Of a stretch of DNA of 34,880 nt, positions 1,119 through 30,897 are shown piece after piece. A model generated the notes under the pieces. The model ran no database searches, was not told the DNA's origin, and was given only the letters and a program-made list of their open reading frames with translations. The stretch's first letter is position 1. Every line of letters begins with the position of its first letter. A program made the position numbers and the translations under genes. Source of the DNA: Psammoneis japonica. Lineage: Eukaryota. The DNA is taken from assembly GCA_008632985.1 (NCBI GenBank), contig QPGO01000388.1, positions 1 through 34,880 of the forward strand, in the 5' to 3' direction.

Positions 1119-1549
1119 GATGATGATGCGTATACATGTATTGTTGTTGGAAATTTGTTGCTAGTAAGTAGTTTGTTGTTGCAACAGACTCTGCACAGAA
1201 GAAGAAGCCAAGTCAGTGAAAATGATGAGCAAGAGGTGGGATGGATTTGAGTGGCTCGAATTGGCTTCCTTGTTTTTTTATGCCTCACGACATATTATAC
1301 GACAACAACCGTTTATCAATGTTCGATTTCTATGGCCCCAAATTGTTTACTCGTATGGCCCACAAATTGTTAAAGACATCTCAAACATTTATCCGAAAAC
1401 ACTTAATTGAGACATCTCTCTTCTCACCTTTTCGAGATTCAAAGTAATCACAATGGTTCATCTGTGTTCATCACAAGGCCAGTTGTCCATTTAGTTCTAA
1501 TTAAACCATTGGCTCACAAACTGTGCAGCTTCAGCATCACACACATCGA

Positions 1550-1650
1550 ATGGGAGTGCACGTCATCTTGACTCCAAAACGCCACCCTGAATTGGCGTGG
1601 GAAGGCACAGAGTGTCTTTGGGCTTGTGCAAAACGCAAGTGCAGAAATCA
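1550..1650 (+). mobile_element. Degenerate IS630/Tc1/mariner-like transposase fragment (C-terminal catalytic Glu region)
   Basis: GVHVILTPKRHPELAWEGTECLWACAKRKCRN fits the PKxHPELxxxIExxWxxxKxxYR motif after reverting ACA>ATA and TGY>TAY. Confidence 0.65.
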
Positions 1651-2199
1651 TGGTGGACCCACTCATCAGAACAGAGGTGGGCATGGACAGGGTCATGCTA
1701 AAAAAAAACAGAAGAAACACAGGCAGGAACAGCAGGTGCCCATCTGGCATGGAGGCCATGGAAACAGAGGTTCTCTTGGGTTGAACCGGGGTCGACTGCC
1801 AGAAGAAGAATCGTCGCGGGCTGCGAATCATGTGGGCCCTGACATCACCAGACAAGACTTTGAACAGCTCAATTTCAAGGCCAAGATTGACCACCAACTC
1901 CATGAGGCAAGAGTGGGAGGACACCCCAAGGATGCCATTGCACCATCAGAGTGTGCAACACAGTGGTCAGACCGACCTTCTTACAGCGAATTTTTTGATC
2001 TTTCATGGTCAAAATTTTTGTGGTTTCAAACCTCATCAGTTGTGTGCACGGTGACAATTTGACAACTGTGAAAGATGAGCTTTGTTGCCATGGAGCCCAC
2101 AACTGTCCTGTGAGGCAACACCATTCACTGTGAAACAGCCAACCATTTTCCCTGTGAGAGTGCCCACCCTCCATTCCTGCAAAACCTGCAATTTAAAAT

Positions 2200-3450
2200 C
2201 ATTTGTGTTGCAAACGCTCTGTTTTGTTGTTTGCATTTAATTTAAATGACGCAGACGGAGACAATGCCATGATGCCCGAGGCTTGCCATTCAGAGACACA
2301 AGCCCAGCGGAGATGCTGCCAACAGCGCTCCAGTCGACACCAAGGCTTGCACTCATGGATGCAGGTCGACAGTTTGCCGGGTTGGCGCTCAACCATGCAG
2401 CCTGTTGGGCATGCAAGCATGCACAGCAACAAGAGAAAACCACAAGGCTGTTTGGTTTGAGAGGTTTTTTCAACAGAGTGCATGAGAGCTGCAGACTGCC
2501 AATCCACAAAGAACGGATGCTTGGGCTGCACTCGCGACCTGCGTGTGGAACAGCGCACCAGCAGAAGTCACAAACATTGTCAGAAGCAGAGCAGCAATGG
2601 GGTGCAATTTCCCCTTTCCTGTTGACACTTGCCAAGAAGCAACAGCTCCATGGGAGAACACCAATCAGGAAGAATGAGTGCTGGAACACATGAGCACAAC
2701 TTTCCCTCTCCCAGCAAAACAGCGACTCGTGTTGAAGTTGCTCATCAAAGACAGCAGAAACCACCACAGAATCTTGCTCCAAGCAGCCAACAAGAACCAT
2801 TCAGGCAACAAGTTCCATCCAGGTGATCTGGCAATCGTGAGGAAGCAAGCACAAAAACAGCACAAATGTCAGAAAAGGGCCCAGGGAAACTTGTGACCAA
2901 GGCATGAGGGCCATGCAGAGCACTGAAGAAAGTGCACAAAGGGGCATGCAATGTCCAAAGAACTCCTTTTGCAGAAGGCAACGGACGCGCTGGCAAACCA
3001 TGCAAAGAAAGCTCAGCATGCATGGAAGCCATGCCTTTGACTTTGGCACTCCATGAGACCACCAATGGCACAGACACTTGCATGGCAATGACAGAACGAC
3101 CCACGGTCAACCATCCCCTGGAAGTGGACTTTGGCAGATGTGCCAAGACAGCACCAGAAAACAACTTTGCCTGTGACAAGATTGAGGATGTGTGCCCCAC
3201 CTTCCAAATGTGCAATGATGACGGCAACAGCAATGACAACAATGACAGCAACAATGACAGCGACCACAGCACAGCTGCAGTCTTTCTGGATCTGGACACA
3301 AAGATTGGAGAAGACGGATGCATTGTTGGTGTGAACATGTCAAAAACCAACAAATCTTTTTCTGCACATGCCTTGTTTGAAGATCGCCATTTGTGGCAAC
3401 TTGCAATGATTTTGGATGCAAAACTCTGACATGCGTGATTTGCCAACGCT
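2200..3450 (+). mobile_element. Degenerate Ty3/Gypsy-like integrase with GPY/F motif
   Basis: 2525-2626 AALATCVWNSAPAEVTNIVRSRAAMGCNFPFPVD; FHPGDLAIVRKQ; 2881-2970 PGKLVTKA*GPCRALKKVHKGACNVQRTPF (GPYRVL-like); multiple frameshifts. Confidence 0.7.
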
Positions 3451-4599
3451 GAAGAAAAGTTTGTGATGTGCGTGCACACAACAACACGCTGGCTCTGCAT
3501 GACAATTCTTCGACACAGCAGATTCGTGACAGCACACTTGTGATCATGAAACTCAAGCTGCACCTGAATCAAAATTCATCTTAGCCAACCAGATGGACAG
3601 CAGGTTTCACCATGCGTTGAGCTGCTGTCATTGGCCAATGGGGCAAAGTCTTTCACTGCCATGGCCGGTTGTCGATTTGCAGATTTGCGACCGCACACGC
3701 AGGATCCAAGTGAATCACAACAGCGCACGCTCTCATTTTTCAAACTTTGGGGAGAGGGTGCACTGTCATGAAGTGTGTGGAAAATTGCGCATGCAAAACA
3801 CACACTGAAAATGCACAGGCAGACCGACAGGCTGCGCAAATCTTAGAAACATGAGGAAAATGAAGGTGGGTCACGTGTGTGCGTGAAGTGCTGCAGACTG
3901 CACACGTGCAAAGACACACACATGTGTCTGCACATGTGCAAAGACACACACACACGTGAGTGAGGAGGACAAAGTTAAAACCAAGTTCAAATTGATTGCA
4001 GTCAAAAGGAACCAAACCACGCATCACAAAAAACAGATTTTGATCCCAATTAAATCAAACATTGCGTGCAGTGCATTGATTGAAGCTTGTGGAAGAAAAG
4101 TCAATGAGACATCAGATGAAATGCAAAAAACAGCTTCATTTTGTCAAGCACTTTTGCTGGCATTTTTTTAAGTTCTGTTTGTTGACAATTTTGACAGTGC
4201 ACTCTAAAAATGTTACAAAGGAAAGTGGAAACCACTGTGTTGCCACCTCTGATGACAGACAGAAAACAATGTGCCATTTTGGCAAACAACACGAGAGAGG
4301 ACAGTGTCAATCCCATTGCACAGAGCAATCTCTGCGACAACAATGAAGCTGTTTCAACATTCTTTGCACCTTGCCCCACATGCACAATGTGCTCGACTGT
4401 GCCAAATTTGAATCTTGAGATCCATGAATTGGCCACAAACGCGGGAATTGAAAATGGCCCATCTTCTTCATAAAAACTCTTTGACACACTTTCAACTGCC
4501 ATGTCATCTCACATTTAAAACAAATGTTGGCACACAATGTGCTTGGCATTGTTGATTGCTGCATTTTGGTTTCATGAATTGACACAAAGATTGGTGATC

Positions 4600-6900
4600 T
4601 CGGTCATTTGTTGTGACAGCATCTCTGATGCTGCGATCACAAAAATGCTCCTTGAAAGCTCTGCAAACAATGCAGTGAGCTTCTCTCACATGGAAAAGTC
4701 ATCCTGCTGTGCGTGCAGCATGTGTTTGCCATCATTGCAGACCCAAATTTTTGAGGTGCTGTTTTTTGCATTTTGCGCCTGAACCTTCCTTTTCTTGACT
4801 GTTGCTGCGATTTCAAGACTTGGGCTGCCACAACAAGGTCGTCCTTGTTGTGTTTCACAATGTTGTTTAAAGGTGGATTGTTGACAGATGCCAGAGTTTG
4901 TAAAACGGCGGTCGCATCATCATCAAAGTCCCAAAATTTGTGCATTTTTGGCATGCACATGTTTGCATGCCGACAAGGTGAAGAAGAAAATGTGTGGTCC
5001 ACTGTGAACAAAGAGCCAAGTCATTGCCCCAAGAGGTTTCAAAGCATGTGGAACAACATTCTAATGTCACTCAGGGGCTGCAAAGGTTTTAGCAATTTGG
5101 CAAGGGGCGTCAAAAAACCACCTCAATTGAGGGCATGGGCATCACATTCATTGCAAGACACATGACCTGGGGTTGCATCATTTGGAATTGCCAGAGCATG
5201 GGCTGACCACACCCATCTGTTCAAGGTTGCCAAGACTCTGCAGGAGCTTCTCTCAACATTGTTTGAGCAGGGTTTTGATGGCATCAGCAGTGAGAACAAA
5301 GACAGAGCAATCACATTTGTGCAACATGATGCTCATGCTGATGCCGTGCCATCACCTGAAAACATCAAGCATCAAGCACGTGCACATCCTGTGCTTGAGG
5401 GTTGAACCTGTTGCTGTTGTTGCAACAACTGTTCTGCACTCTGGTGGTGCATGCCCGCCACTTGCCGCCCTTGTTGTCTGCAACCTCCTTGTCCAGCCAT
5501 GTGCTTGCAAGCTTGCACGACATGCGTGTGACCACCACTGAACCTCAATTGCTGCCATTTGTCTGGAGAAAATGGGCAAATCATTGGATTTGACACCTCA
5601 AGCAATCAATCATGGTGCCTTGGTTGTCCACCAAAGTGCCCCCCTGCCTGCCTTGGCCTCTGTCACTTTGGGGTCCGCTGCCTCTGCCTCCTCTTGGTTC
5701 ACAGCCACTGCCTCTTGCAAAAGCCCCTGCCTGGGTTTCCATCATGGGACATGTCTGAAATCTTGTGCTTTGAATGATGTTGAGCATCCAATTGAGAGCT
5801 GCTCCACACAAATGGGAAAGTTCTGTGGACAAGAAGATGTGCAAGCACCAGCAAAGTGGTGGAGACACTGTTGGCTGATCATGGGGGTGCAAGCATGTGA
5901 CCTGACATTGTCAGTCTTAACTCCTTGAAGGAGAATGTCAACCTTTAGCCTGTCTGTTTTGTTTGCACTCATCCTTGCCCTTGTCAAGGTTGCAAACACA
6001 CTGGCACATTTTGCTGTGCAGCACTCAGACAACAAGCACCTCTCTCTTTCTTGAAATGTGATGTCCTGATGTCATCCAATGCCATCTGTGCATGCTTGTT
6101 GAGCTCTCCCTGTCCATTGCAATGGTTTGCCCATGCCCAGAATGCAGCGCATCTGCCCCATTCTCCACAATGTCATGACTTTCAATCCAAGTCCACCCTT
6201 CCATGTTTGCAAGACATCCTTTTGACAGATCAAGCTGAGCAGGCACATGCACTCCTCTGCATCATTGACAAATGAAGCAGGAATTGCTGCCGGCCTTGCC
6301 ACATGTTGCAATGGTTCCTTTGGCACACCTTCTGTGACAAAAGATTCAAGAGCGCATCTTCCATCATGTTGAAATCCTCTCACTTGAGTGTTGGTGATGA
6401 GCTGACCATCAAGTCGGATTCAACCATGTCCTTTTCAGCATGCTTCCATTGACATGCTTCTGCCAATGCTGCTCAATTGAACTGTGCTGCATCTGACAGG
6501 AGGTTGTGCTTCTGACAATCACAAAGCCACCAAACCAAAGCTTGCAAGTTCTTAATCTGGGCTGCACAAAGTGCCACTCTCCCATCTTGGACAATGCATT
6601 GACCAGCCCCGTTCACCATTTTTTCTGCATCCCGCAAGTCTCTTCCACAACTGCAACATTTTCCAAAGTGCGCTTGTCATGAAACACCAAACAAGCTCTT
6701 GCATTGATGTCAGCAATGCCACATGACTGCAACATGTTGTCAACATCTGCTGCAAGCACTGATGCCGCCATGACCTGAGCTGGTGCTGCTGCCATGCTTT
6801 CTGCAACAATGTCAACAGAACAGTGTCCATTGTGGACAAACAAAGTGACTGTGAGACTCACATGATGGGCAAGAACAGAGACTGAATGCTTCACGAGCAT
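4600..6900 (-). mobile_element. Degenerate Copia-type (CoDi-like) gag region
   Basis: Broken minus-strand frames: MLQSCGIADINARACLV...TLENVAVVEE, DGRCALESF..EG, DRLKVDILLQGVKTD; resemble diatom Copia gag by recollection; boundaries approximate. Confidence 0.4.
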
Positions 6901-9580
6901 TGTGGTGACAGGTTGTCACAATCAGCCGGTGATGAGAGGCCACCCCACCCCACACTGTTGTGTGTTCAAAACCTGTCACACATGTTGAAAACTGGTTCAT
7001 TTGCAAGTGTGATGCCATTTCAGCCCCACAGCAATTCTCATTGTTTGCACTCCAGTCATGTTTGTGATGTTGCACAATGCACACACACAAAACCACTTTT
7101 TCTGCGGCTGACAACTGTGTGGGCATGCACAGCAATGAATGGCTGTGTCATTTTGACTCACACCCATGCAACAATGACAACATTTCACTTGGACTCTCAA
7201 TGATGCAGTGCAGCTCTGACAAAGCAAACAAACAGCAATGTGGTGCTGTGGCTCATGCCACAACACTCTTGCCCTTGTCTTCCTGTCATGTCAAACACAC
7301 ACGTGTGCATTTGCACAACCATTGCTGCAAAGATGACAAGCCTTTCCCACCCAGCCATTCCACACACACTGACCAAGAAAGACCACTTCACTCAGATTTA
7401 CTCAACATTCACAAGCGAGTGACTTTAGAACTGAAAATTTCAAGCGCACAAAATGTCGTCAGAAGCACGCACACTCTGGCCAGCTCTGGCAGTCTAAAGA
7501 CACCTGGAGAGGCTCTCAAAACCTTTGCTTTTCGAAAGCAATGGTGTCCAATGATGAAAGACAACAGCTGTTGTGGCAAAGAAGTTTGAAAACAATGACT
7601 CACTGGGGGAGAGGCACAGGTCCCTGGTGCAAGAAGCCCTCCAATGTCAGACAGAACTTGGCCCTGAAGACAATTTCAGGATAAAAGGATTGTGGATGCG
7701 ACAGACCAGAAGAAAGTCATGTGTGCATTGTGCATGGCCAACCAAAAAGCATTGTCGCCACCGTGTCAGACCGCAGTTGAAGATCGGAGTGCCGCATGTG
7801 CAATGACGGGAGAGACGCAACGATTGCAGCTGTGGTGCAGTTCATTGGCGGCACGGTCTTTGAGCGTCCACTCTTGACGATTGCCTAGACAGGATGCATC
7901 CAGTTTCCAAGAGTATCTCTTGACGATTGCCTGCCATATACAGGATGTACACTACAGAAGCTAACATGCTGTTATAACCAGAATAGATACTCTGCACTTG
8001 GCCACGCCAAAACTTCTCCTCTAATCCTATCAGCACACAAATCGTCTCCTCCCTGACAGCACTGACACGGAGCGTTGGACTTACAAAACCTCCTGTTACC
8101 ACTCTCTGCCCAAACACATCCACTTGAAGTAGCCCGCACTTCCATGCCAAGGGATCTATCCCATCCAAATTGCGAGTGTCACCGCATCAATAAGTATAGG
8201 AGAGCAACCACCAGCGCCATTACGTCAAAGGGTGTGACGTTAACGGATTTCAACGAAGAGTTATGAACTCGCTGAAAAATACAGTAACGGCAAGATAGCC
8301 AAGGTGTGAGTTGGCATACAATATCACATCCAGCTTTGCTCTGAATGTTGTCATCGAAACTCAAAGGAATAATGGCCGACCTTGACGATGAACAAGAGTG
8401 CGCACGGAAACAATGCATGAGCCGTGTTCTTCAATTTATGTGGCGAAACACAGATGCCCGTATATCACACAACAGAACATACCTTACACCGCCGCATATG
8501 AAAAGCAATAAAATGGGCTTTGAGGCTTTGACGACTCTGTCCGTTCTGTAGCGGATGGTTCAGACCCCGAATGCAATGTGTAGAAGATTTTTAGTGTCCG
8601 AAAGGGCAAAGCCAATGCCACGTAGTACCCCGTTCAGGTAGTTGTAGTCTATCTGGACCTTTGGTAGAGGCGGAGGCATGTTGGTTATCCCGTCTCAGTA
8701 AATGTAAGGGGTCAAACTACGCCACGTTCAGCTCGAAAGAAGTCCGTCCGACAGCATCAAACGTGACATTTCCGGTTTCAGTATCTTTTTGTCGAATGAA
8801 GTTGAGCAAGTGGTATTATGCGTGGACAAATCACGAGGCCCTGTCATCAGATCAACATCAATATAATCCGTAACACCCACAAAGCTTGTATTGACAGCGT
8901 GCTCGTAACGGGAGACGCCGTCTGCTGCAGACTTGATTATTCTTTCGACTGGAAGCTGATCTCCACCTGATCGGGATGGTTCTGGAGCTCTTGCATGCTC
9001 GAAACCAATGTATCAAGCGCACGAGTTCCTGGTATCGGCATGGAACTTCCACGAGTCACTTGCAGGATTGATGTAGGCTATCTCAGAAAATACAGACACA
9101 AAGAGAGATTCGGATCGGAGCCGCAAAGTGTTGCGCATTCGCTCATGGTGTACAGTATTTGTGATCGGTGGCGAATAACATCAGCGATCGTCACAGCGCA
9201 GCTAATCAACAGCCCCAACTAATATATAATAAAATGTCATGTGCGTGTCAACGGAAACCACGAATAAGATTTATTGCCTCACAGAGACTTTTGGCGAATA
9301 GTCGTCAGTCGTCAGAAGCAAAGAGGAAATGAAAAAGGCGTGGCCATGGCGCTGCCGTAAGATTGTAGCGGTATTCCGAGTTTGGATTCGAGATGATTAC
9401 TTGGATCAAGCCCAGTACCGTTTAAATTGTGTCAAAACCAACTCTGCACTTCGCGGACACGATTGCCTACACGCGAAAATCCGAAATGTGCAAGCACGCA
9501 CTTTCCCACGCTCTTATCTTTCTTCGGCTCACAACCGCAGTTCTGGCAAGAAAGTAAAGTATCGCATCGACAATATCACC

Positions 9581-15609: not shown

Positions 15610-17838
15610 ATGTTCGTTTTCAAAGGAGGTCTTCTTCTCTTGGCTCTTGCGTTATGCAAGGCAGCTGGTACGTCTTGATGTTTGTTTATTGTTGTCGTTT
15701 GTCGTCTCGTACCGTATTTAGATGCCAATAAATATGGATTAATGTACGGTCCACTTCTTCTCTCTGAAAATTCAGATATCTCGAAAGACACTGGTCTCAT
15801 TCATGATACCGAGGAGGAGGAGGAGGTAAGTTTCAGTAGAGATAGCATTGTTGATCATGCCGACTACGTTTCGCTCACTCACTTCGCCGAATCCGACATC
15901 CCGCCAATAAATACAGCTTGACCTCATCCCAGAAAGCACTAGCTTGATCGACAGGTTTCTCAGTGGTGTACGTAATTAAAAACGAGATTGCATTCGTTGT
16001 CTTGTGTACAGCAATCAAGAGCTTACGATGTTTCCATTTTCGACTTTCATTTTACAGTACACCGGTGCATGTTGCTTTGCCGACAACTGTCTGTCTCTCG
16101 ACCAGTACACGTGCGGAGGAAGAGGTGGAGTCTTTGGCGGTTTCGGTTCTAAGTGTAACAGGAAGACATGCCCGAATGCCTTTGGCGCTTGTTGCAAGGA
16201 TGGGTCGTGTAAAATCCGCAGCAAAAAAGGATGTGCCAAAAAGGGTGGTTCGTTTCAGGGCACCGGCACCGTCTGCCGCAATGCCTATTGCCCAGTCCAT
16301 ACGCCCGCTCCAACGCCTAAACCTTATCATCCGCCTAATCCTCGAGGTGGGTGCTGCTTTCCGTATCTCAAGGATTGCAAGAACATTAAAAAGAAGAACT
16401 GTGCCAGAAGGGGAGGACACTTCCTAGGTGAAAAGGTTTTCTGTGACAGGTACAACTGCCCGGATGCCTTTGGAGCTTGCTGTCTCCCAAATGGATACTG
16501 TGAAGTTCTTACGAAGAAAAGGTGTGAGAGGAAGTATGGCAAGTTCAAGGGACCGGGTATCGATTGCTCGCATGGCATTGTAAGTCAATACTCCCTGGTT
16601 CTCATTTTCAATATCATTGGATAGTGACATTCAATGTGATTTAACATCACTCTCTTTGCTATTGCTCTCTTCAAGTGTGGCCCTTCCCCCACCCCGTCAC
16701 CAACACCCAAGGTAGAAGATCCAAAGGGCGCGTGCTGCATCGACGGGCATTATTCCTGCCTACATTTAACGGCAAAAGAGTGTGCTCTTGCTTATGGTAA
16801 ATTCCAAGGTGAAGGTACCACTTGCTCGCATGGCATTGTAAGTCAAAACTCCCTGGTCCTCATTTTCAATCTCATTGGATAGTGACATTCAATGTGATTT
16901 AACATCTTTCTCTTTGCTATTGCTCTCTTCAAGTGTGGCTCTCCCCCCACCCCGTCACCAACACCTGCGGTAGAAGATCCAAAGGGCGCGTGCTGCATTG
17001 ATGGACATTATTCCTGTCTACATCTAACGGCAAAAGAGTGTGCTCTTGCTTATGGTAAATTCCAAGGTGAAGGTACCACTTGCGAGCATCCCGGTATTGT
17101 AAGTCAAAACTTCCTGGTCTCCCTGGTCCTCATTTTCAATCTCATTGGATAGTGGCATTCAATGTGATTTCACATCTTTCTCTTTGCTATTGCTCTCTTC
17201 AAGTGTGGCTCTCCCCCCACCCCGTCACCAACACCCAAGGTAGAAGATCCAAAGGGCGCATGCTGCATCGACGGGCGTTATTCCTGCCTACATTTGACGG
17301 CAAAAGAGTGTGCTCTTGCTTATGGTCAATTCCAAGGTAAAGGTACCACTTGCGAGCATCCCGGTATTTGCGAAAAGAAATCGGCCTGCTGCTTCCCTCA
17401 GGGTGTTTGCTTTGACGTGGAAGAAAATGTGTGTTATGGTATCAGTGGCAAATTTTTCAAGGGAACAAAGTGCAACGGCGTCAAGGACGCAAGGTGTTCT
17501 GTTACTCCACCTACTCCCGGTGCGTGCTGCAAGAAAGGAGGAGGAGGAGGAAGCCCACGAGCAGTAGCTCAAAGAGCAAGGGAAAAGGCAGTAGTGGCAG
17601 CACTGGTAGCAGTGGATGGGGTGGTAGCAGTGGCAGCAGCAGCAGCAGCAAGGGTAGCAGCAAGAGTAGCAGTGGCAGCAGCAGCGGTGGCAAGAGTTGT
17701 GAAATTGTCGACACCAAAGACGATTGCGACGGACACTTTTTGGGTCCTGGTACCACGTGTGATAAGTGCCCTTCTTCCCCTTCTCCTCCAAGCAGCAGCA
17801 GCTCAAGCAGCAAGAGTAAGGGCAAGCATAGAACGTAG
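15610..17838 (+). CDS. Secreted Cys-rich repeat protein (9 GACC repeats) with signal peptide, acidic propeptide ending at RFL, and Ser/Gly/Lys-rich tail; apparent frameshift at ~17550
   Basis: Exons 15610-15667, 15776-15825, 15917-15967, 16058-16579, 16676-16837, 16934-17098, 17204-17838; all introns GT..AG and phase-compatible; spliced N-terminus MFVFKGGLLLLALALCKAADISKDTGLIHDTEEEEELDLIPESTSLIDRFLSGYTGACC. Confidence 0.85.
16565..17368 (+). repeat. Triplicated intron+exon unit (~258-270 bp)
   Basis: Introns 16580-16675, 16838-16933, 17099-17203 are near-identical, each followed by CG.PTPSPTP.VEDPKGACCIDG.YSC. Confidence 0.95.
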
Positions 17839-18167
17839 CTTTCAGTGGCAGCTTATATTGAGTAGTTCGTTAGTGGTAAAGGAAAAGACCGGAGCGTCTG
17901 TTGACGAAATGGCAGACTTGTGGCAATGGTCCTTTTTTTTGTAATAATAGTTTCATACTTGTGTGCTTCCAAAAAATATATCAATCGACCTAGCAACAAT
18001 ACTCTCTAGAGCTCCCCGATCACTCGAACAAAATCCTACTACTCTTTGCAATTTGAAATTCCATAGGGTGACACTCCTTGCATGCTCGAAATGGGTGTCT
18101 TGATTCGAATGCTAGAGCGGGCATGGAAGTGAAACTACTTGGACAAACTCAAGTCGGACCGAGCCTG

Positions 18168-18370
18168 AAATTTTAAGTCACTCTTTATAGGATTGTCAAG
18201 CACCGAACACGCAAACTACTCACTAGAGACTACTCTCTATAGCTAGAGCGTCCACCATGATTCAGTACTCACCCTACCGTAATTTTAGTCGCTCTTTGAA
18301 TAGCATTGTCAGGCATAAACCATGCAAACTACTCACACTAGACTACTCTTTAGCTAGCGCGTCCACTATA
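18168..18370. repeat. Two diverged ~90-bp direct repeats (period ~112 bp) in the convergent intergenic region
   Basis: AATTTTA(A)GTC.CTCTTT...ATTGTCA.GCA...GCAAACTACTCAC..AGACTACTCT..TAGCTAG.GCGTCCAC.AT occurs twice; also present in copy 2. Confidence 0.8.
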
Positions 18371-18500
18371 ATAAAGAATAAAGCACTCTCTAAACCGTAG
18401 CGTCGTCTCACTGTCTCACCATTACTACGGTACTGACTACCACAACCACACATTCTACTACCACAACCACATCATCATCATCTCTCTCGCTCACACACTA

Positions 18501-19126
18501 TTATTTCTTCTTGGCACCACTCACGTTATGCATAAAGACAACTATATCACCCTCTTGCATAACATAGGTCTTTCCCTCTTGTCTGTATTTACCCGCTTCC
18601 TTGACTTTCGCCATGCTCGCTTGTCCACCATGCAATGCTTTAAAATCATCAAAATTGGCCACTTCGGCCTTGATGAAACCACGTTCAAAGTCGGAATGAA
18701 TGACACCGGCGGCTTGGGGTGCCAAGGTGCCTTGCATAATGGTCCAGGCCCGTACTTCCTTGGGTCCTGCCGTATAAAAGGATTGCAAACACAAGGCGGC
18801 ACGACCCGAACGGATAATGCGGGGCAAGACGGATTTGCACACAAATTGTGGACCCGTCAAACCCAATGCCTTGGCCTCGTCGGTGCATTGATTGAGATAG
18901 GCTTGTTGGAAATATAATAATGAGAATCGCAAGTGTTGTGTGAGATTATTACAGTGCAATGCAATGCAAAACACACTCATCTCATAATAACAATGCTATT
19001 TACCTTTCTGTGCCTCCTTGTCGTCTCCAATATCGGCCAATTCTTGTTCAAATTCACACGACATGGGTATGATTTGTCCACCACCGTGTTCATTCACCCA
19101 CTGTTGAATCTTGGGTAACCACTTGC
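18501..19126 (-). pseudogene. OLA1: 5'-truncated copy of OLA1/YchF
   Basis: Last exon 18501-18901, intron 18902-19003, partial exon 19004-19126; P-loop domain missing, replaced by foreign sequence from 19127. Confidence 0.92.
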
Positions 19127-19249
19127 GAACTTGGAGAAAAAAGTGACCATCGTGCACGCTGTCAATCAACGGGGGCAAAGTGCGTCTCTCGAGCAAATTG
19201 TGAGAGCAAGAGGGATTGGAGGATGAGGAGACTGAATGAGCAGTCTGGG

Positions 19250-19456: not shown

Positions 19457-20769
19457 AGTCTGGGGGGCGTGAGATCGTCGAAGGCGGTCTGATCGCCAGT
19501 GCGTTTGGGGGGTTTTCCAGTGCAATTTGCACGCACAAGAAAACACACCTGCCATAGGATCTGTCAAGTTGCGCGCAGACTTTGGCGGCCACAGAAGGAG
19601 GAAAGGTGGTGCTGGGTGGGCGGGCACACGATTGATGGAAAAAGGTGATGGGATGATGTGGGCAAGGAGGGGGGCAGCAGAGCAAGGTGACAGGCTTGTT
19701 GCTGTGGTGTGACAAGTGTCGAGTGTTGGCACTCTGGCTGTCTGTTGACAAAATCAGAAAGAACAAGGGCCCAACAGGCAAGTGCCAGCTGCAGCGCCAT
19801 CGTGCCTCTCCTGGAGATCCAGGGCATTTGGCACAACCTGAGTTGTGGCACGCAGCTTGAAGTCAAGGGGGGGGGGGGGGGAAGAAAGCAGGTGGGGCAA
19901 GAAATGGCGCACTGGTGCACACAAAAGACACAGCAGCAAGGCACCTGCTGCAGCAAACACAGGTTTTGCTGTTGGAAAAGCAAAAGATTTGCATTCTTGG
20001 ACAGCTCCATGGTTGGCATGAACCGCAAGTTGCATGGAAGGAAGTTCAAGTGCCGCGCAAGTTGCACTTTGTCAAGAGGCAAAGTCAAGCCACAAAGACT
20101 CCTCTTGTGCTGAAAGCAATGTGAAATGAAAAGCAAAGAGGGGGGCCTCACTGGGGCGGAAGAAAAGTCCCGGCTCGGTTCACTCGCCGGGATGAGCTGG
20201 TTGTTTGTTTTGCGGTGGGCTCAATTTTGACATCAAAGCAGTTGAGAGCAAACTCCAGATGCAGCTTTGACGTGAAATGACCAGTTTCTCAAGGATTTTC
20301 CTTCACCCAGTTTGTGCTGTGGTGTGAGTGCTGTGTGGACAGCAGCTGCAGCTCGGGGGCCAGTGCCAGGCGGCAACCCAGATGCATCAGCTTGCTCTTT
20401 GAAAGAGCTGCAGTCACAACCCAACAAAGCCAGGTGGCAGTTGCCAGAAGCAGATCTCTTGCTTGAAGTGAAGCTGCTGCTGAGTTGTTTTTGCACATGA
20501 AGAAAAACAACAAGAAAGCTCATTTCCAGCTGTGCCAGCGGGGCTGCTGGGTTTGCAAGTGAGAGCAGGGGTCGTGCTGCAAGCTGGGGTGAGCAAAGTC
20601 ACTGGAGACAACTCAAACTGGGGTCATGTGCATGATCTTGAAAAAAGGGAACAGGAGCACTGGATCAAAAGAAGAGAAAAAAGCACTGCACAGGCAAGGG
20701 CACCCTGCCGAGGCAGCAAAAAGCACGCCAATTGGCTTTGCTCCCTAGATGCACCAGCTGCTCCCCTGC

Positions 20770-20905
20770 AAAAGAGTTTTGTTGTTGCTGTGTTTCTGTC
20801 TTGTGCTTGTTGTCAAAGTTTTGCATGCACTGGACAAGCTGATGATTTGAGCAAGGTGCTGAAGCAACACACAAACATCGAGTGTGTGCATGGAAGTGGG
20901 CCGCA
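20770..20905 (+). mobile_element. Possible degenerate GIY-YIG endonuclease fragment
   Basis: SFACTGQADDLSKVLKQH...GSG resembles YxGxTxDLxxRLxQH with Y>C. Confidence 0.35.
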
Positions 20906-23900
20906 TTTTGTGAAAGAGTTTCTGGCAATGCAGAGCAGCAGAGAACCTGCTGTGCAATTTAAAACCACACACAGATGAATCATGGTGAGGCACTGAAAAG
21001 CGTGACAGAGCAAACTGGTGAGGGAACAAACTGCAAAGCATGGTCATGGTGTGCAAGCACAAAACTCTTTTTCTGTGCTCTGCATTTTTGATGCACTGGC
21101 CAAAGGACTGCTCCAATCTTGACATCTCTCAGGCTTTGCTCCTGACAAAGTGATGAGGACTCCAATGTTTGTGCCATTGGCTGCGGGCATCCCATGGCCT
21201 GTCATTGTTTTGTCTTTCGTTGGTGCAAACACAGTGGCACAACAGATGCACAGGCAGATGGGTGTTGTGTCATTTTTGGGGGTTCAAGTGATTGTTCATT
21301 TGGGCTTGTGTGATGTTTTGTCAGCGGGCATTGCATTTGGGTGTTTTGGCCAATCAGAAAACTCTTCCTGAGATTTGCAACATTTTCGTCAAAGAAAAAG
21401 AACAAATGAAATGCTCTTTCTTTTGTCACAATGACAAGTTGCAATTGGCCATGTCGAAACAAAGGCAATTTGTTGATGTCACATGTGTGGTCACATGTTC
21501 ACTCTATTGCTGGGTCACAATCATCACAACACTGTCGTGTGGCCCTCCAAAAACACAATTGCAGCAGCGAACTTAGCGTCGCACAATCACACTTCTATGT
21601 TCACGAACAATTTTTAGAACTCCTCACATGCGCTCTCATCAAAGAATGCTCTTTCAGGCAGTGACGTCATTTGTGCTGATTTTTTTACAACTTCAATGCC
21701 TTCCATCTTGAAAACGAGTCAGAATCCCCCCACTTTTCTCATTTCCAAAACATCTCTTTCACTCAGCTGCACGACATGAGCAAATCATAAAAAAATCTGC
21801 AGAACCATTTTGGAGATGTTTCTGCTTTTGTGCAATCGTGTGGCATGTCACGAGCTCTTTTTCTGAATTTTGGTCTCAACTTCATGATCGGTGTTCCATG
21901 CGTGGCAATGCAGACAGAACCCTGAAACCATCATTTCCTCATCCACCTTCATGTGTTGCACTTGGTCCACAAAAGTCAGACCCATCCATCCGGTTTGAAA
22001 AATCACACTCCGTTTGCTCCTCCTTTTGCTGACCCAGGTCCCATTTTTTCAAAATTCTGAAAAAACAACTTAAACTTCAAGGCCCTGATTGGCACACAAT
22101 GCTTGGTTGATGTGCACCTGACTGCAAGACGCCTCTCCGGGTCCCTCTCCGTGAGGCAAAACACTTGGCCGGCTGGACCATGAGAGTGCAGCCAGTCCAT
22201 CCAGAGGTCCCAAATGCCCAATCGCACTGATTGACATGCTGCCCCAGTGCAAATTCTGTGCAACTTTCTTCGACAGTCTCACTTTCGAAGACGTCCCCCA
22301 AGTCACGGGAAATTTGCGGACATGAGCAGTCTCCTTCCACACAACTTGCACCAGCTTCCATGGATTCCTCTCTCAACTGACATTTGCAGTGACTGTTTCG
22401 CTCCAGCAATTTGAGTGTCTTTTGCGCTGGAAGCTGCTTTCTGCCCCCCAGCTCCATGATGCCACATGTAAAAATCAACCCCCCATTTTTGACCAAATGC
22501 CCACCTTGGTCGACTGACAGTGTGCAGATGCGAAGTTCAGCACTCTTTTGGGGGCCTGGAGTGGGGGTGGATGTCAGGGCCCAGTTGCTTGCCAATCACT
22601 GAATGTTGGCTCTCGCACTTGCCCGTGTGACAAAGGTGCTCCACGAAAAGTTAGTTCTGTTTTGAAATGCCAGATGCCATGAACAACACACGCCTGTCAC
22701 ATTCTTGCAAGACATCAGTTTAAAGAGCATGAGACTGACAATGCTCGCATCTTGTGCATTTTGTGGCTCTAGAGCGGGGGTCAAAGTCTGGCCAATTCTT
22801 CCAAAAATTCGAGTCGAGTGGTTCACACGGGATTCAAGACACGTGGCTCACTGCACAATTGAGCCTTTTTTCTCCTTTTTTCCGAGATTGGATGATGACA
22901 TCAACACAAGACCTGTTTCATGGCCACACTCCATTCTCCAATCCATGGCTGGCCTCGTGACAACTACATTTGACCTCTTTCATGCTCTGGACAGGCCAAG
23001 CAATCCACAAAAACTCAATGCAAGCAACACACTTCTGTTCTCACATTTGATGTTTGTGTCTTTGCGGTCAATCTAGAGCAGATGTGAGCCAGGGAGGAGC
23101 TCTGTTCACTGACATTTATCATCCTGTGGAGTGGCATCATCAGAACAATTTTGTCAACGTTGTTTGACTGCTTTTTTGTTGAACCGTGCGCCAGCATCAT
23201 TCTTCATTTTCGCCCCAATCCGCCCGACTCTCTCCTGTTCAAGAATGCTTGGCTGAATGCATTGCAGTTGCTTTGTTAAAGTCTTGCAAATGTTCGTCTG
23301 TTCAATGCCATTGATCAAATGGGATGGATGACATGACGACGACGTTGGATTCGTTCATGTGCTCATGCTGGGAAAGACAACAAGAATTGGCTGCGGTGGC
23401 AAGAAAGTTGAGTGAGACAACAAGTGGTGAGCCTTGGACACATTGGCAAAACAATTTTGATTTTAAATTTACTTGCCTTTTTACAAACTCGGACTTTAAC
23501 ACATCGGGTTCCAAAAATCTGGCAAATGGTGAGTTGATGCGTCGTCTGCATGCAACATGGCGTCACGACAAAGCAAAGCAGCATGTTTCAATGTTTCTCG
23601 CCAAAATGAACGTCTCCAAATGGAAAATTACAACCGTGTGTCAATGAGGGTCCAATGGAGCTTCTGTTGCAATGGTCCAAAAAACGACAAATGTTTAGAC
23701 ACCCCATCTGCCGCGTCAATGTCATCGTTGGCTCCGGCAAGTTTTTGACAATTTCTCCGTGTTGTCACCACGGGGATGGTCTGTGCACTCATCCGGAGCG
23801 CACCGGCCATGCCAGTTTGAAGTTGCTCAGAGCCTGGGTCTCACAGCTGCGTGAAGGGAACGGCAGCTCGAATGCACACTGGAAGCAACATGAATGCCAT

Positions 23901-24479
23901 GGATTCCTGCTGAAATGGAGAGTTTTTCATGGCCCCAATGGCAGCTTGAATGCATGTGCTGGAAGCCACGTGAATGTGCCACGGATTCCTGCTGAAACGG
24001 CTGGTGGCGGCACTGTTCCCAGTGGCATGTGAGCTCAGAAAGTGGCTCTTTTCTTTTCCCTCCAATCTCCGATGTCTTGCAAACAGCTTTGAAGCTCCTC
24101 TTGGCAGTGCTGTCCCACCATTTGCTTTCGGACGATGCTTGCTTTTGAATTGGTGCATTCCTTCCACAGCAAGCTGGCACCTTCGTTTCTTGCTAGATCG
24201 AAAGCAACGCAAGCCAATGTGCTTGGACTGCAGAAGACAGAGCCTGTTGGTTGTGTGGGGCACAGATTCCCAAAGTTGAGTTCCAACTGCTCCTCCTGAC
24301 CACCTCATTCATTCGTTGTTGTGTTCAGTTGTCCCGTTGAATTGAAAGCATCACAGAAGTCGAGTTTCCATCATTTGATGGGACGCAACTCCATTTCCAG
24401 CAGAAAGACAAGACAACAACATCGTTGTGCACACTGCACAAAGTGGCACAAAATCAAAAATGGAAGACGCTGAGCTTCC

Positions 24480-25010
24480 TTGTCCATGGCGAAGATTCGG
24501 CTGCACTCTTCCTGTGTCAAGCCTCGATCTTTGATGATCAAATTGATCATTTCAAACATTTCTTGGATGTTTTCTTCATTGGCAGACCTTGTGACACACA
24601 ATCTTTCCCGACTCGTTTGCATCAATCATGTCAAATGCTTCACGAATCTCCTCCTTGGTCCTTGGAAAGGTGCACTTGATTTCGGTGCAAACCGCTTTCT
24701 TGAAGTCATGTCTGAGCACAAGTTCTCGAAGTCATCATGAAGCGTCGGGTCAGCATGAAAGAGCTGGTGCATTGCCTTGGCGGGCAGCATGGAAACCTTG
24801 CATGAGTCACTGATGCACTGGGCTGTGACACTGTGGGGCTTGCCAAAGTGGACAGTGCACTCACCCGTCATTTCACTCGGTCGCAACAACCGCACCTTGT
24901 GGCCATGAACGGAAATGTCAATGTCACCCTCCATCTTCATGCAGAGCTTGTTTCCCTTTTGACCTTCAGAAAAGATCTTGTCACCTGCAAGTTCTGAACA
25001 CTGCATTTTT
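24480..25010 (-). pseudogene. Hypermutated host-gene fragment: cyclic-nucleotide-binding domain followed by an EF-hand-like segment
   Basis: LAGDKIFSEGQKGNKLCMKMEGDIDISVHGHKVRLLRPSEMTGE...KPHSVTAQC is a cNMP-binding pattern; EENIQEMFEMIN follows. Confidence 0.65.
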
Positions 25011-25809
25011 TGTTGAGACTCAAAATTGCACTGGCTCGTTCTCGTCTCTCAGCCATGCCCAGAAAGGTCTCCTTGTCTGTTGCGACATGCTTTTCATGCA
25101 AGTTGCAAGAAACTTCCAACAAGTGCACCGGTGTCTTGCGGGTGTCAATGCCGTGCTGCTGGAGTGCTCGTCCTTGGCATTCATCAAGACGTCTTGTCTG
25201 AAAATCTCACCCGACCCTCACATTTTCTTGAAGCCATCCGTGAAGAAGCCAGCTTAAATTGACACGAGTCAGCTCTCATGTCATCATTCAAAAGGGGCGC
25301 AACTCACTCATTCACTTGTTCTGCTGTTCACATCATTGTGTCGTTCCACCAGCTGTGTTTTCCATTGAAAGGAACAAGTCAGTCGGAACAATGCATTCAG
25401 ACATTTGTGGAAGTCATGACTGCTGCATCTCAGTTGTTCACCTTGGGCGGCGTCTCGTTCTGTCACACAACAAAGGCACAAAGCGTGGCCACAAGGCTCA
25501 ATCCAACTCTCATTGGCCTGCACTGGCCAGAACCTTCTGTTTCACAGTGTCTGGCAAAGCGACAGCTTCCAACATGCCACGTGCCGTTTGCTCACCGTCA
25601 TCCTCTGTCCTCGCACCTCGCACCCCTCCCAAGGTCCCAAGGGGTGGCTGGGAGTGCGTCGCACCGCGAGCGAGCTCTGCTCCACATGGCTCTGCTCTCT
25701 GCTCTCTCTGCTCCACTGGGGCCCTACACCGCGACAGTGACTGGTGACCCAAAATGCCTCCGGGCCCCGAAACTCCTCTGGGTCCCAAAATTTCTCCACA
25801 ACACAAAAT

Positions 25810-27313
25810 GGACAGCTTGCCGAGTTTCATTTTTGGCATGCCAGTAGAAATTCAATGTGTTTCTACATGCGACAGTTTCTCACACATTCGCACGAACATC
25901 GCGAACTCTGCGAGCTCCAACACGAGAATGACGCGAAGCACCAAGAGTTTGTGAGAGAGCAAATGGTGTTGCTGGCACACTGTGAGTGCCAAGCAAAAAT
26001 GCCAAAACATTGTTGTCACATGACACATGGATGGTTGGTCTATCGACAGACAAAACAAATCGCCTTCAAAGCTGGTCAGAAGCTTCAACAGACTGCACAG
26101 CTGTTTGCATGTTGTTGGGTTGCAACAGAGGCCTGCGTTGCCCACTTTGAATCATTCTCAAATGATGACCACAGCCAACTCCTCCACCAATGTTACTGTC
26201 ATCTCCTGCATCAAGTTGCTGTTCAATTCAATCAATGCTCTCTGCAGCCGGAGAGCAAATGATGAGACTTCTGGCTCGTCCAACAAGATGACAACGATGC
26301 CGACTCGACAACTCGCCAGCATTTTTGTTTCAGTCACAGATTTGTCATGTGACTGGTTGATGTCCACAACCATGAATCTTTTCGAAAGCATTGCTTGTTT
26401 GCATCCACAAAGCAGAGCCCTCTAAACTGCTGCTGCTGCATGAAGAGAAGGACGACAAAGCAGAGCCAGTCACAGCCCCTGGATGAGCAACCATTTCAGA
26501 ACAAGTTTTCCTTGGGATCAGGCCAAATTCACTGTCACACCACCAATTTGAGCTCTTCTGAGTCATCCACACCGGTTGCATTTGCCAGAGTTCTGCCAAA
26601 GTAACTTCCAATGGGGCCAACGCGTCATTTGCGGTTCTTGCATCCACAGACACACATTCAGGGTGAGTCCTCCTTGGCCTCCAGCCAACTCCGCTGTCAT
26701 GCCAACACATTGAGAACTGCTGAGTCTTCCACACTGCATGCTGACGTCACAACACCGCTAAAGATGCTTCAAATGGGGTCAACACATCGTCGCAATGTCA
26801 ACACCGACCATTGTGCGTCATGTTGGTGGGTCCAGCGGCGTCTTTTTGTCGCGAAACAAAACCCCTGTAACGCGGTCACCATTGCTGAGTCTTCCATGCT
26901 GAATGCCAACGTCACAATGCCACCAAGGACACTTCAAATAGGATCAACACATCGTCGCAATGTCAACACCGACCATTGTGCGTCATGTCGATGGGTCCAA
27001 CGGCGTCCTTTCATGGCGAAACAAAGCCCCTGTGACTCGGTCACGACCGGCCATTTTCTTGAACCAGCTGTCAGTTGCATTCTAAGACTCCATGGTGAGG
27101 GAGACATGATGTGGCAAGGTAGCGTCAGAGTGCAAACAACGCCGCAGTGTCATCATCATTGTGAGTGCGGCATGCACGGGTAGGTCGCCGCACAAATTTG
27201 AAAGAGCTGATGGGTCCAACTGCCATTTCAGTACAAACGTACGTAGAAACTTGTATGTACAGATCTACACAACTTTGTACTGGCATGCCAAAAATGAACT
27301 CGGCAAGCTGTCC
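25810..27313. mobile_element. 1.5-kb non-autonomous TIR element with AT target duplication (ISL2EU/PHIS-like)
   Basis: TIR GGACAGCTTGCCGAGTT(T)CATTTTTGGCATGCCAGTA at 25810-25846 and inverted at 27278-27313; AT at 25808-25809 and 27314-27315. Confidence 0.8.
26718..27044. repeat. Tandem duplication, period 165 bp, two copies
   Basis: TGCTGAGTCTTCCA starts at 26718 and 26883; shared core TCAACACATCGTCGCAATGTCAACACCGACCATTGTGCGTCATGT. Confidence 0.95.
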
Positions 27314-27320
27314 ATTCCTA

Positions 27321-29364: not shown

Positions 29365-29373
29365 AGCAGTGGC

Positions 29374-30897
29374 AGCAGTGGCAGCAGCAGCGGTGGCAAG
29401 AGTTGTGAAATTGTCGACACCAAAGACGATTGCGACGGACACTTTTTGGGTCCTGGTACCACCTGCGATAAGTGCCCTTCTCCTCCTCCTCCAAGCAGCA
29501 GCAGCAGCAGCAGCTCAAGCAGCAAGAGCAAGGGCAAGCATAGAACGTAGCTTTCAGTGGCAGCTTATATTGAGTAGTTCGTTAGTAGTAAAGGAAAAGA
29601 CCGGAGCGTCTGTTGACGAAAAGAAAGAAAAAAGAAAAAAATGATGGCAGACTTGTGGCAATGGTAAACCTTTTTTGTAATAATAGTTTCATACTTGTCG
29701 ACATGAGCATTGCGTGCTTCCAAATAATATATCAATCGACCTAGCAACAATACTCTAGAGCTCCCCGATCACGCGAACAAAAGCCTACTACTTTTGCAAT
29801 TTGAAATTCCATGAGGTGACACTCCTTGCGTGCTCGAAATGGGTGTCTTGATTCGAATGCTAGCTAGAGGGCATTGAAGTGAAACTCTTTGGGCAAACTC
29901 AATTCGGACCGAGCCTGAAATTTTAAGTCACTCTTTATAGGATTGTCAAGCGCCAAACCACGCAAACTACTAACTTTGAAACTAGACTACTCTCTTTCTC
30001 TCTAGCTAGAGCGTCCACCATGATTCAGTACTCACCCTACAGTAATTTTAGTCGCTCTTTGAATAGCATTGTCAGGCATAAACCATGCAAACTACTCACT
30101 CTAGACTACTCTCTAGTTAGCGCGTCCACTATAATAAAGAATAAAGCACTCTCCAAGCCGTAGCGTCGTCTCACTGTCTCACCATTACTACGTGACTATA
30201 CCACAACCACACATTCAACCACAACCACAACCACATCATCATCATCTCTCTCGCTCACACACTATTATTTCTTCTTGGCACCACTCACGTTATGCATAAA
30301 GACAACTATATCACCCTCTTGCATAACATAGGTCTTTCCCTCTTGTCTGTATTTACCCGCTTCCTTGACTTTCGCCATGCTCGCTTGTCCACCATGCAAT
30401 GCTTTAAAATCATCAAAATTGGCCACTTCCGCCTTGATGAAACCACGTTCAAAGTCGGAATGAATGACACCGGCGGCTTGGGGTGCCAAGGTGCCTTGCA
30501 TAATGGTCCAGGCCCGCACTTCCTTGGGTCCTGCCGTATAAAAGGATTGCAAACACAAGGCGGCACGACCCGAACGGATAATGCGGGGCAAGACGGATTT
30601 GCACACAAATTGTGGACCCGTCAAACCCAATGCCTTGGCCTCGTCTGTGCATTGATTGAGATAGGCTTGTTGGATATATAATAATATGAGAATGACAATT
30701 GTAGTGAGATTATTACAGTGCATTGCAATACAATACACACACCCATCTCATAAAAACAATACTACGGTATTTACCTTTCTGCGCCTCCTTGTCATCACCA
30801 ATATCGGCCAATTCTTGTTCAAATTCACACGACATGGGTATGATTTGTCCACCACCGTGTTCATTGACCCACTGTTGAATCTTGGGTAACCACTTGC
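29374..30897. repeat. Segmental direct duplication, copy 2
   Basis: Matches 17668-19126 with scattered substitutions and indels. Confidence 0.95.

What the first reader, a model, noticed from the sequence alone, without database searches (positions are those of the whole stretch)
1400..7910. Surviving TpAs define a target motif: RTAY is erased, YTA/TAR persists
Seen by eye: residual TAs in both blocks have a 5' pyrimidine and/or a 3' purine (TTTAAA, CTTAG, CTAAA, GTTAC, CATAAA, CTAGA). I found no GTAC, ATAT, GTAT or ATAC. A strand-symmetric tetranucleotide preference suggests an enzyme footprint rather than general GC-biased drift.
Basis: seen in the sequence. Interest (0 to 1): 0.7.

Follow-up and report, generated by a model that had tools for sequence, protein, structure and literature searches.

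The report
Flank rule of diatom TpA hypermutation
In transposon-rich blocks of this diatom genome almost every TA step has been mutated to TG or CA after insertion, fastest where the A is followed by C or T, which gives a sequence fingerprint for a still unidentified DNA-mutating defence so far reported only in one unrelated alga.

Summary
Observation confirmed. In 1400-7910 only 31 TA steps remain: RTAY 0, RTAR 4, YTAY 3, YTAR 24, against 318/265/251/129 outside; no dinucleotide shuffle reaches this. The genome is a diatom. Unmutated sister copies give the direction: of 406 reference TA sites, 341 became TG/CA/CG, 55 stayed and 10 changed otherwise. The footprint is not a palindromic tetramer. 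It is a one-strand motif, TA followed by a pyrimidine (about 2.6-fold faster than TA-purine), applied independently to both strands, so RTAY offers two good targets and YTAR none. Mutation follows chromosomal domains, not copy number. It outruns CpG decay (31/39 TA against 5/65 CG in a young Copia segment), is not strand-coordinated and is not fungal RIP. The same TpA-only A:T>G:C signature is reported for Bigelowiella natans (bioRxiv 2026), whose main text, by word search, mentions neither diatoms nor a flank rule. Adenine deamination is the likeliest chemistry but is inferred; no enzyme is shown. This scan has already noted the process and this flank rule on other pieces of the same genome. 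New variant of a known kind.

The parts
1509..7886 (.). TpA-erased domain 1 (the finding): TA o/e 0.06, CG 0.32, CA 1.76, TG 1.99
1944..4255 (.). multi-copy repeat, unclassified; its part 3268-4255 has dozens of copies at about 76-83% identity, and all fetched copies are TA-poor
4256..5132 (.). second multi-copy repeat (74-85% identity to copies elsewhere)
5132..7300 (-). decayed coding element; the frame 5581-6857 belongs to a multi-copy protein family (92 matches, some in stop-free frames of about 535 aa); no Pfam or database homologue found
19459..27083 (.). TpA-erased domain 2, same survivor rule (RTAY 0 of 36 TA)
19564..22204 (.). 2.64-kb repeat; copies L022 and L027 keep TA in the right-hand part where the window has TG/CA
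22447..23851 (.). 1.4-kb repeat without a long ORF; 17 of 22 copies examined are unmutated, the window copy has lost 40 of 50 TA sites
24455..25241 (-). decayed copy of a host kinase gene with cNMP-binding and EF-hand domains; the intact gene (L113, contig C3) has normal TA and CG
25807..27316 (.). element with terminal inverted repeats; the domain edge (about 27083) lies inside it and its last ~230 bp keep TA, including RTAY
17659..19144 (.). control: host-gene duplication (partner 29365-30915, 90% identical), not hypermutated

Best explanation
A host mutator acts on kilobase chromosomal domains of silenced, transposon-rich DNA after the elements have inserted. It turns A:T into G:C only where the A is preceded by T. 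It prefers a pyrimidine after the A (TAT ~ TAC > TAG, TAA; TA flanked by T- and A-runs such as TTTAAA is nearly immune). Each strand is hit independently and one hit destroys the site, giving TG or CA about equally. RTAY has a good target on both strands and vanishes first; RTAR and YTAY have one; YTAR has none and survives. SHOWN: direction, purity, one-strand TA-Y motif, both strands, domain limits, speed relative to CpG decay (confidence about 0.9). INFERRED: the chemistry is deamination of dA to dI by a zinc-dependent adenosine deaminase (ADAT2/3 or the diatom ADAR/ADAT1-like paralogue), recruited to silenced chromatin, acting in episodes and read as G at replication (about 0.5). It is probably the process seen in Bigelowiella natans.
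For: Direction: 17 of 22 copies of the 22447-23851 repeat have TA o/e 0.71-0.81 and CG about 1.0. Against sites where five close unmutated copies agree, the window changed 40 of 50 TA sites (RTAY 13/13, RTAR 11/11, YTAY 8/14, YTAR 8/12). Transitions per base: A in TpA 43/111, other A 14/449, C in CpG 14/89, other C 4/337; four leave-one-out controls give 0.017-0.049 at TpA. The kinase pseudogene and the Copia pair L257/L283 give the same spectrum. Purity: 406 reference TA gave TG 174, CA 163, CG 4, TA 55, other 10. Motif: base 3' of A gives relative rates C 2.6, T 2.75, G 1.05, A 1 over 586 events. Retention in 361 kb depleted vs 275 kb normal DNA: ATAT 0.006, ATAC/GTAT 0.015, GTAC 0.021, up to CTAA/TTAG 0.26 and TTAA 0.65; an additive one-neighbour model fits the 10 classes with R2 0.97 and TTTAAA is retained at 0.99. 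Speed and domain: in a Copia family of 11 copies at 98-99% identity, L275 has 31/39 TA changed in its first 1.1 kb, 4/109 beyond, and CpG 5/65. In the TIR element, 6 of 7 copies with one normal flank keep TA at the end facing that flank (4 right end, 2 left end; L093 keeps TA throughout), and 2 of 2 copies with both flanks depleted keep neither end. Chemistry: TadA-derived ABE7.10 prefers TA and TAC (PMC8065034, passages); the B. natans preprint proposes A-deamination; the genome has ADAT2 and two ADAR/ADAT1-domain genes.
Against: Sequence alone cannot tell an A lesion from a T lesion. No result here links any gene to the process; the deaminases found may all be ordinary RNA or nucleotide enzymes, and neither of the two A_deamin genes was classified by a tree. 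ABE7.10 is far less strict (TA:GA about 3-4-fold, CA second, small 3' effect) than this process (TA 0.41 vs GA 0.04, AA 0.04). The two estimates disagree on TAA vs TAG: survivor ratios give 0.24 vs 0.96, polarised sites give about equal rates. Proximity is not sufficient: unmutated copies L086, L089, L090, L100 and L103 directly abut TA-free blocks, and L107 has a mutated island between normal flanks, so episodes or later insertion must be assumed. The sharp edge in L275 could also be a recombinant between a mutated and a clean copy. Methylation and chromatin state were not measured.
Confidence: 0.55

Rival explanations
1. A modified base marks silenced DNA at TpA and is itself mutagenic: an oxidised thymine read as C in R-T-A context, or N6-methyladenine that is later deaminated. 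The mutations would be a by-product of an epigenetic mark rather than of a dedicated editor.
For: Same sequence outcome, since T>C at RTA equals A>G at TAY. Independent hits on both strands with no clustering fit a standing mark (131 of 273 adjacent pairs on the same strand vs 137.7 +/- 7.9 expected). Domain-like distribution. Thymine oxidation marks in dinoflagellates and kinetoplastids are recalled, not looked up.
Against: No Tet_JBP match in the genome (0 candidates; the controls did not ring either, so this is weak). Eukaryotic 6mA is ApT-directed (recalled), yet the A in CAT, AAT and GAT changes at 0.04-0.08 vs 0.54 in TAT. 6mA methyltransferases were not searched.
Confidence: 0.22
2. Error-prone gap filling by a Y-family polymerase (Pol eta or iota, G opposite T) during mismatch repair of deaminated 5mC in methylated repeats, as at the WA hotspots of somatic hypermutation.
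For: CpG is also depleted in the blocks and correlates with TA over 88 1-kb tiles (Spearman 0.41). A Pol eta-like gene is present (L294). POLH is error-prone at template TW (PMC6423074, passages).
Against: AA is not hot (0.041 vs TA 0.414; 0.027 vs 0.417). Transversions are at background (10 of 351 changes). There is no same-strand clustering. TA loss far exceeds its supposed trigger (31/39 vs 5/65), and Copia families with TA 0.1-0.2 keep CG at 0.8-1.0.
Confidence: 0.1
3. RIP acting in the usual direction: the TA-poor state is ancestral and the TA-rich copies gained TA from CA/TG.
For: Diatoms carry DNMT4 enzymes related to fungal RID (PMC9998398, passages); 27 C5-methylase matches in this genome.
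Against: The same TA column becomes TG in some copies and CA in others (57 such columns inside the finding). The TA-rich state is the majority state and the intact-ORF state. CA/TG to TA is 0 of 147 in the L275 segment.
Confidence: 0.02
4. GC-biased gene conversion, drift, selection against TA, or an assembly or base-calling artefact.
For: TA and especially YTAR are somewhat under-represented everywhere in the window (0.64 and 0.34 outside). Some Copia lineages with long ORFs are TA-poor.
Against: Only TpA is affected; other A:T pairs and transversions stay near control levels. The class most avoided outside (YTAR) is the one that survives inside. The change is private to single copies within about 1% divergence. 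X1 contigs at depth 61-76 match TA-free stretches letter for letter.
Confidence: 0.04

Closest known systems
TpA hypermutation of integrated NCLDV and virophage DNA in Bigelowiella natans (Mettrop et al., bioRxiv 10.64898/2026.01.13.699255; parts 1-3 of 5 read plus a word search, supplements closed)
   Same: A>G / T>C only at TpA, giving TpG and CpA; both strands; bounded regions; long-term TpA depletion with CpA+TpG gain, also in TE-like sequences; deaminase proposed, not shown.
   Different: There: two viral inserts, TpA still common (rho 0.45), 124 clusters. Here: near-saturation (o/e 0.07) over 48% of the one 200-kb stretch sampled, in transposons and a host pseudogene, with CpG decay alongside and a 3'-pyrimidine rule.
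Repeat-induced point mutation (RIP; RID/DIM-2) of ascomycetes
   Same: Dinucleotide-specific, transition-only erosion of repeats in bounded blocks beside untouched genes.
   Different: Opposite direction (TpA is the substrate, not the product). Duplication is not sufficient and partners are spared. No strand coordination seen. Defining features of RIP partly recalled.
TadA / ADAT2-3 and TadA-derived adenine base editors (PMC8065034, passages)
   Same: A>G with a 5' T preference and a TAC favourite.
   Different: Engineered or tRNA-directed; much weaker 5' discrimination, CA second best, small 3' effect; not a natural genome-wide mutator.
Pol eta WA hypermutation in immunoglobulin genes (PMC6423074, passages)
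   Same: A>G at TA.
   Different: Includes AA and, as recalled, many transversions and patch-wise strand bias; none of these is seen here.

Membership tests
Bigelowiella-type TpA hypermutation | Mutations confined to TpA | tested here: met
   TA 0.41 vs GA/AA about 0.04 per base; 43/111 vs 14/449
Bigelowiella-type TpA hypermutation | Almost only A>G / T>C, on both strands | tested here: met
   341 of 351 changed TA sites; TG 174, CA 163
Bigelowiella-type TpA hypermutation | Restricted to bounded regions of foreign or mobile DNA | tested here: met
   blocks are nested repeats plus a pseudogene, neighbouring genes are normal
Bigelowiella-type TpA hypermutation | Targets of viral origin | tested here: inconclusive
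   the decayed frame in block 1 has no Pfam or database match; Copia elements are hit elsewhere
Bigelowiella-type TpA hypermutation | Rate about 1000-fold above background, on in some lines only | not testable with these tools
   needs mutation-accumulation lines; unmutated copies beside mutated blocks fit episodes
Bigelowiella-type TpA hypermutation | ADAT2 homologue with HxE, PCxxC and the conserved Asn | tested here: met
   contig C26 gene, motifs in two exons; recalled as the ordinary eukaryotic tRNA editor, so not discriminating
Fungal RIP | C>T at CpA producing TpA | tested here: not met
   0 of 147 CA/TG became TA in the mutated L275 segment; direction is the reverse
Fungal RIP | Triggered by duplication, both copies mutated | tested here: not met
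   1.5-kb linked duplication unmutated (6/88 and 5/88); 17 of 22 repeat copies and the intact kinase gene unmutated
Fungal RIP | RID/DNMT4 gene | not tested
   27 C5-methylase matches were not assigned to families
Pol eta WA mutagenesis | AA as well as TA is hot | tested here: not met
Pol eta WA mutagenesis | Same-strand clusters from repair patches | tested here: not met
   131 of 273 vs 137.7 +/- 7.9; near-saturation lowers the power of this test
TadA/ADAT-type DNA adenine deaminase | 5' T preference, TAC favoured | tested here: met
   against PMC8065034; stricter here
TadA/ADAT-type DNA adenine deaminase | Inosine intermediate and a responsible gene | not testable with these tools
   needs chemistry and knockouts

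The most novel reading that the evidence does not exclude
Diatoms and chlorarachniophytes share an old SAR-wide genome defence in which a natural nuclear DNA adenine deaminase with a TA-pyrimidine motif is guided to silenced chromatin and rewrites up to half of a genome. A candidate is the ADAR/ADAT1-like paralogue on contig C79: conserved in centric and pennate diatoms, only the A_deamin domain listed for 120 of 120 homologues shown, and lacking the RTK loop motif of the ADARs.
Probability: 0.25. Interest if true: 0.9.

Novelty: new variant of a known kind. Interest (0 to 1): 0.62.

Why it matters
A TpA-only A:T>G:C mutator is in print, as far as my searches reach, for one alga and two viral inserts. 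Here it has run to saturation across much of a diatom genome, which moves it from a curiosity to a major force on transposons and pseudogenes. It also explains why such repeats lose tyrosine and TAA/TAG codons and escape homology searches. The flank rule (TAY about 2.6-fold over TAR, one-strand motif, TTTAAA immune) is a quantitative fingerprint. It can be checked at once against the 231 de novo mutations of B. natans to ask whether one enzyme family is responsible, and it can be used to screen candidate enzymes in vitro. A natural DNA adenine deaminase would also matter for base editing.

Tried and rejected
Palindromic tetramer recognition: rejected; additive half-site model R2 0.97 and strand direction. 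5'-neighbour model: small gain only. CpA as a second target: weak and inconsistent (A after C 13/355 vs about 0.04 for GA and AA in one family; somewhat higher in Copia families B, C and the kinase). Strand coordination: none at 15, 30, 60 or 200 bp. Nucleosome phasing of survivors: a ~180-bp period exists but equally in normal DNA, so it does not discriminate. Identity of the block 1 element: six-frame Pfam scan negative, homologue search negative among 2924 candidates, no match to intact ORFs already held; it stays unclassified. Other diatoms: the metagenome scan returned mostly distant (about 40% identity) YchF/OLA1 loci; the four closest show no TA-free block, which is uninformative, so spread across diatoms is untested. 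Tet/JBP search empty with silent controls. Runs X2 and X3 hold next to none of the words and were not used. The wider flanks of L275 and of the unmutated copies were not obtained, so whether L275's mutated segment joins a larger block is open. Literature searches for a diatom report found none; subscription journals are not covered. No report of the diatom ADAR-like gene appeared in one search listing. PMC10661471 passages were uninformative.
Full report
Observation. The window is eukaryotic and lies in a 91-Mb assembly with 24 silicon-transporter matches, so it is a diatom. Two blocks, about 1509-7886 and 19459-27083, have TA o/e 0.06-0.08, CG 0.32-0.51 and CA/TG 1.6-2.0, against 0.64, 0.90 and about 1.2 outside. 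In 1400-7910 the 31 surviving TAs split RTAY 0, RTAR 4, YTAY 3, YTAR 24; block 2 gives 0/7/12/17; outside gives 318/265/251/129. YTAR is the rarest class outside and the commonest inside. No dinucleotide shuffle of 1000 reaches RTAY 0 in either block. Contigs of run X1 match four TA-free stretches without a difference, one of them across the right edge; X1 may be the source sample.

What the blocks are. Both are nests of dispersed repeats. Block 1 has three families whose fetched copies are all TA-poor; its coding part belongs to a multi-copy protein family that I could not name. Block 2 has a 2.64-kb repeat, a 1.4-kb repeat, a decayed copy of a host kinase gene and a TIR element. Domain edges do not coincide with repeat ends: about 430 bp at the left and 590 bp at the right of block 1 had no match among fetched loci (searches give lower bounds), and block 2 ends about 230 bp inside the TIR element. 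In the one contiguous stretch sampled elsewhere (C1, 200 kb), 48% falls in 17 depleted segments, eight of them 7.6-12.1 kb long.

Direction. Of 22 copies of the 1.4-kb repeat examined, 17 have normal TA and CG, three (window, L102, L111) are depleted and two are half depleted. At sites where five close unmutated copies agree, the window changed 40 of 50 TAs to TG, CA or CG: RTAY 13/13, RTAR 11/11, YTAY 8/14, YTAR 8/12. Transitions per base are 0.387 for A in TpA, 0.031 for other A, 0.157 for C in CpG and 0.012 for other C; four leave-one-out controls give 0.017-0.049 at TpA. The intact kinase gene against its window copy (17/38 vs 2/122 for GA and 4/122 for AA) and Copia L257 against L283 (151/362 vs 13/484 for AA) agree. 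Pooled over these comparisons and L275, 406 reference TAs gave TG 174, CA 163, CG 4, TA 55 and 10 others. Inside the finding itself, where no clean copy was found, 57 alignment columns carry TA, TG and CA together, and RTAR columns favour CA (203 vs 93) while YTAY columns favour TG (115 vs 79).

The motif. Retention of each NTAN word in 361 kb of depleted against 275 kb of normal DNA (loci chosen by repeat searches plus C1, so not a random sample) runs ATAT 0.006, ATAC/GTAT 0.015, GTAC 0.021, ATAG/CTAT 0.037, ATAA/TTAT 0.085, CTAC/GTAG 0.10, CTAG 0.12, GTAA/TTAC 0.17, CTAA/TTAG 0.26, TTAA 0.65. Four additive half-site terms fit these ten classes with R2 0.97, so no palindrome is needed. Survival alone cannot say which flank matters, but direction can. 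At YTAY/RTAR sites the TA-pyrimidine strand is hit 164 times against 63. Leaving out the ten 2.64-kb copies, which may share ancestry, gives 95 against 34. A likelihood model on 586 events gains 45 log units from the base 3' of the A (C 2.6, T 2.75, G 1.05, A 1) and 5 from the base 5' of the T. The two methods disagree on TAA vs TAG; a protective second A (TTTAAA retained 0.99) and stop-codon avoidance in the normal background probably contribute (inference).

How it is laid down. Copy number is not the trigger: a linked 1.5-kb host duplication (6/88 and 5/88 TA differences), 17 repeat copies and the intact kinase gene are untouched. Position matters: among nine copies of the TIR element, six of the seven with one normal flank keep TA at the end facing that flank, whichever end it is; L093 keeps TA throughout; the two copies with both flanks depleted keep neither end. 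It is fast: Copia L275, 98% identical to ten sisters, has 31/39 TA changed in 1.1 kb, on both strands, against 5/65 CpG, and 4/109 TA beyond; a recombinant origin of that edge is not excluded. Other Copia families have TA 0.1-0.2 with CG 0.8-1.0, so CpG decay is a slower companion and not the cause. Against simple spreading, five unmutated 1.4-kb copies abut TA-free blocks and L107 holds an isolated mutated island; episodic action or later insertion would explain this. Neighbouring hits are not strand-coordinated.

Mechanism. The purity, the strict 5' T and the 3' pyrimidine bias fit base-flipping deamination of A (inference). ABE7.10, derived from TadA, favours TA and TAC but is much less strict (PMC8065034, passages). 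The genome holds ADAT2, an organellar-type TadA, dCMP and riboflavin-pathway deaminases (named from their sequences, by recall) and two A_deamin genes. One of these, on C79, is conserved across diatoms with no second Pfam domain listed and is distantly related to solved ADARs. Nothing links it to the process yet. A mutagenic modified T or A remains open. Pol eta repair synthesis (PMC6423074, passages) is disfavoured because AA is cold, transversions are at background and TA loss exceeds CpG loss. RIP (diatom DNMT4 noted in PMC9998398, passages) is the reverse direction.

Comparison and novelty. Earlier notes of this scan pointed to a preprint on Bigelowiella natans, which I read in parts 1-3 of 5: 230 of 231 new mutations in two viral inserts are A>G/T>C, all at TpA, in some lines only, with ADAT2 as candidate. 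Its main text has no occurrence of diatom, trinucleotide, flanking or context; its supplements were closed and may bear on the flank rule. My searches found no diatom report (listings and abstracts only). The scan has recorded this process, and this flank rule, many times on other pieces of the same genome; those notes are not independent evidence. Verdict: real and well polarised; a new variant (new lineage, genome-scale saturation, defined one-strand motif) of a process described once; enzyme unidentified.

Noticed in passing
window and G000 C1:100001-300000, plus fetched loci: A ~180-bp periodicity: CG in phase, TA and AA/TT in antiphase, in both TA-depleted (362 kb) and normal (301 kb) DNA; nucleosome scale.
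   Followed up: partly
L299/L300 (G000:C79:344558-345390): Second ADAR/ADAT1-domain gene, conserved in centric and pennate diatoms, no dsRNA-binding domain listed, loop motif unlike ADAR.
   Followed up: partly
L154 (G000:C79:87006-90176): Zinc deaminase fused in one frame to DIOX_N and 2OG-Fe(II) oxygenase domains.
   Followed up: no
L164, L165 (G000:C301, C297): C5-DNA methylase matches inside TA-depleted DNA, possibly carried by mobile elements.
   Followed up: no
L258, L260-L264, L273, L278-L281: Copia families with long open frames, TA o/e about 0.1-0.3 and CG mostly 0.7-1.0, 95-98% identical within a family: lineages that seem to have kept spreading after purging TA.
   Followed up: partly
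window 17659-19144 and 29365-30915: Direct duplication with the 3' part of a YchF/OLA1-type GTPase gene; the left copy is cut off at the edge of block 2.
   Followed up: partly
window 19564-22204: The repeat begins TCAAG and ends TC(T/A/C/G)AG with no long inverted ends; class not determined.
   Followed up: no
window 15980-17944: Cys-rich secreted-looking protein with GACC repeats in three ~260-bp tandem units; no Pfam match.
   Followed up: no
window 7870-7935: Short direct repeat straddling the right edge of block 1.
   Followed up: no
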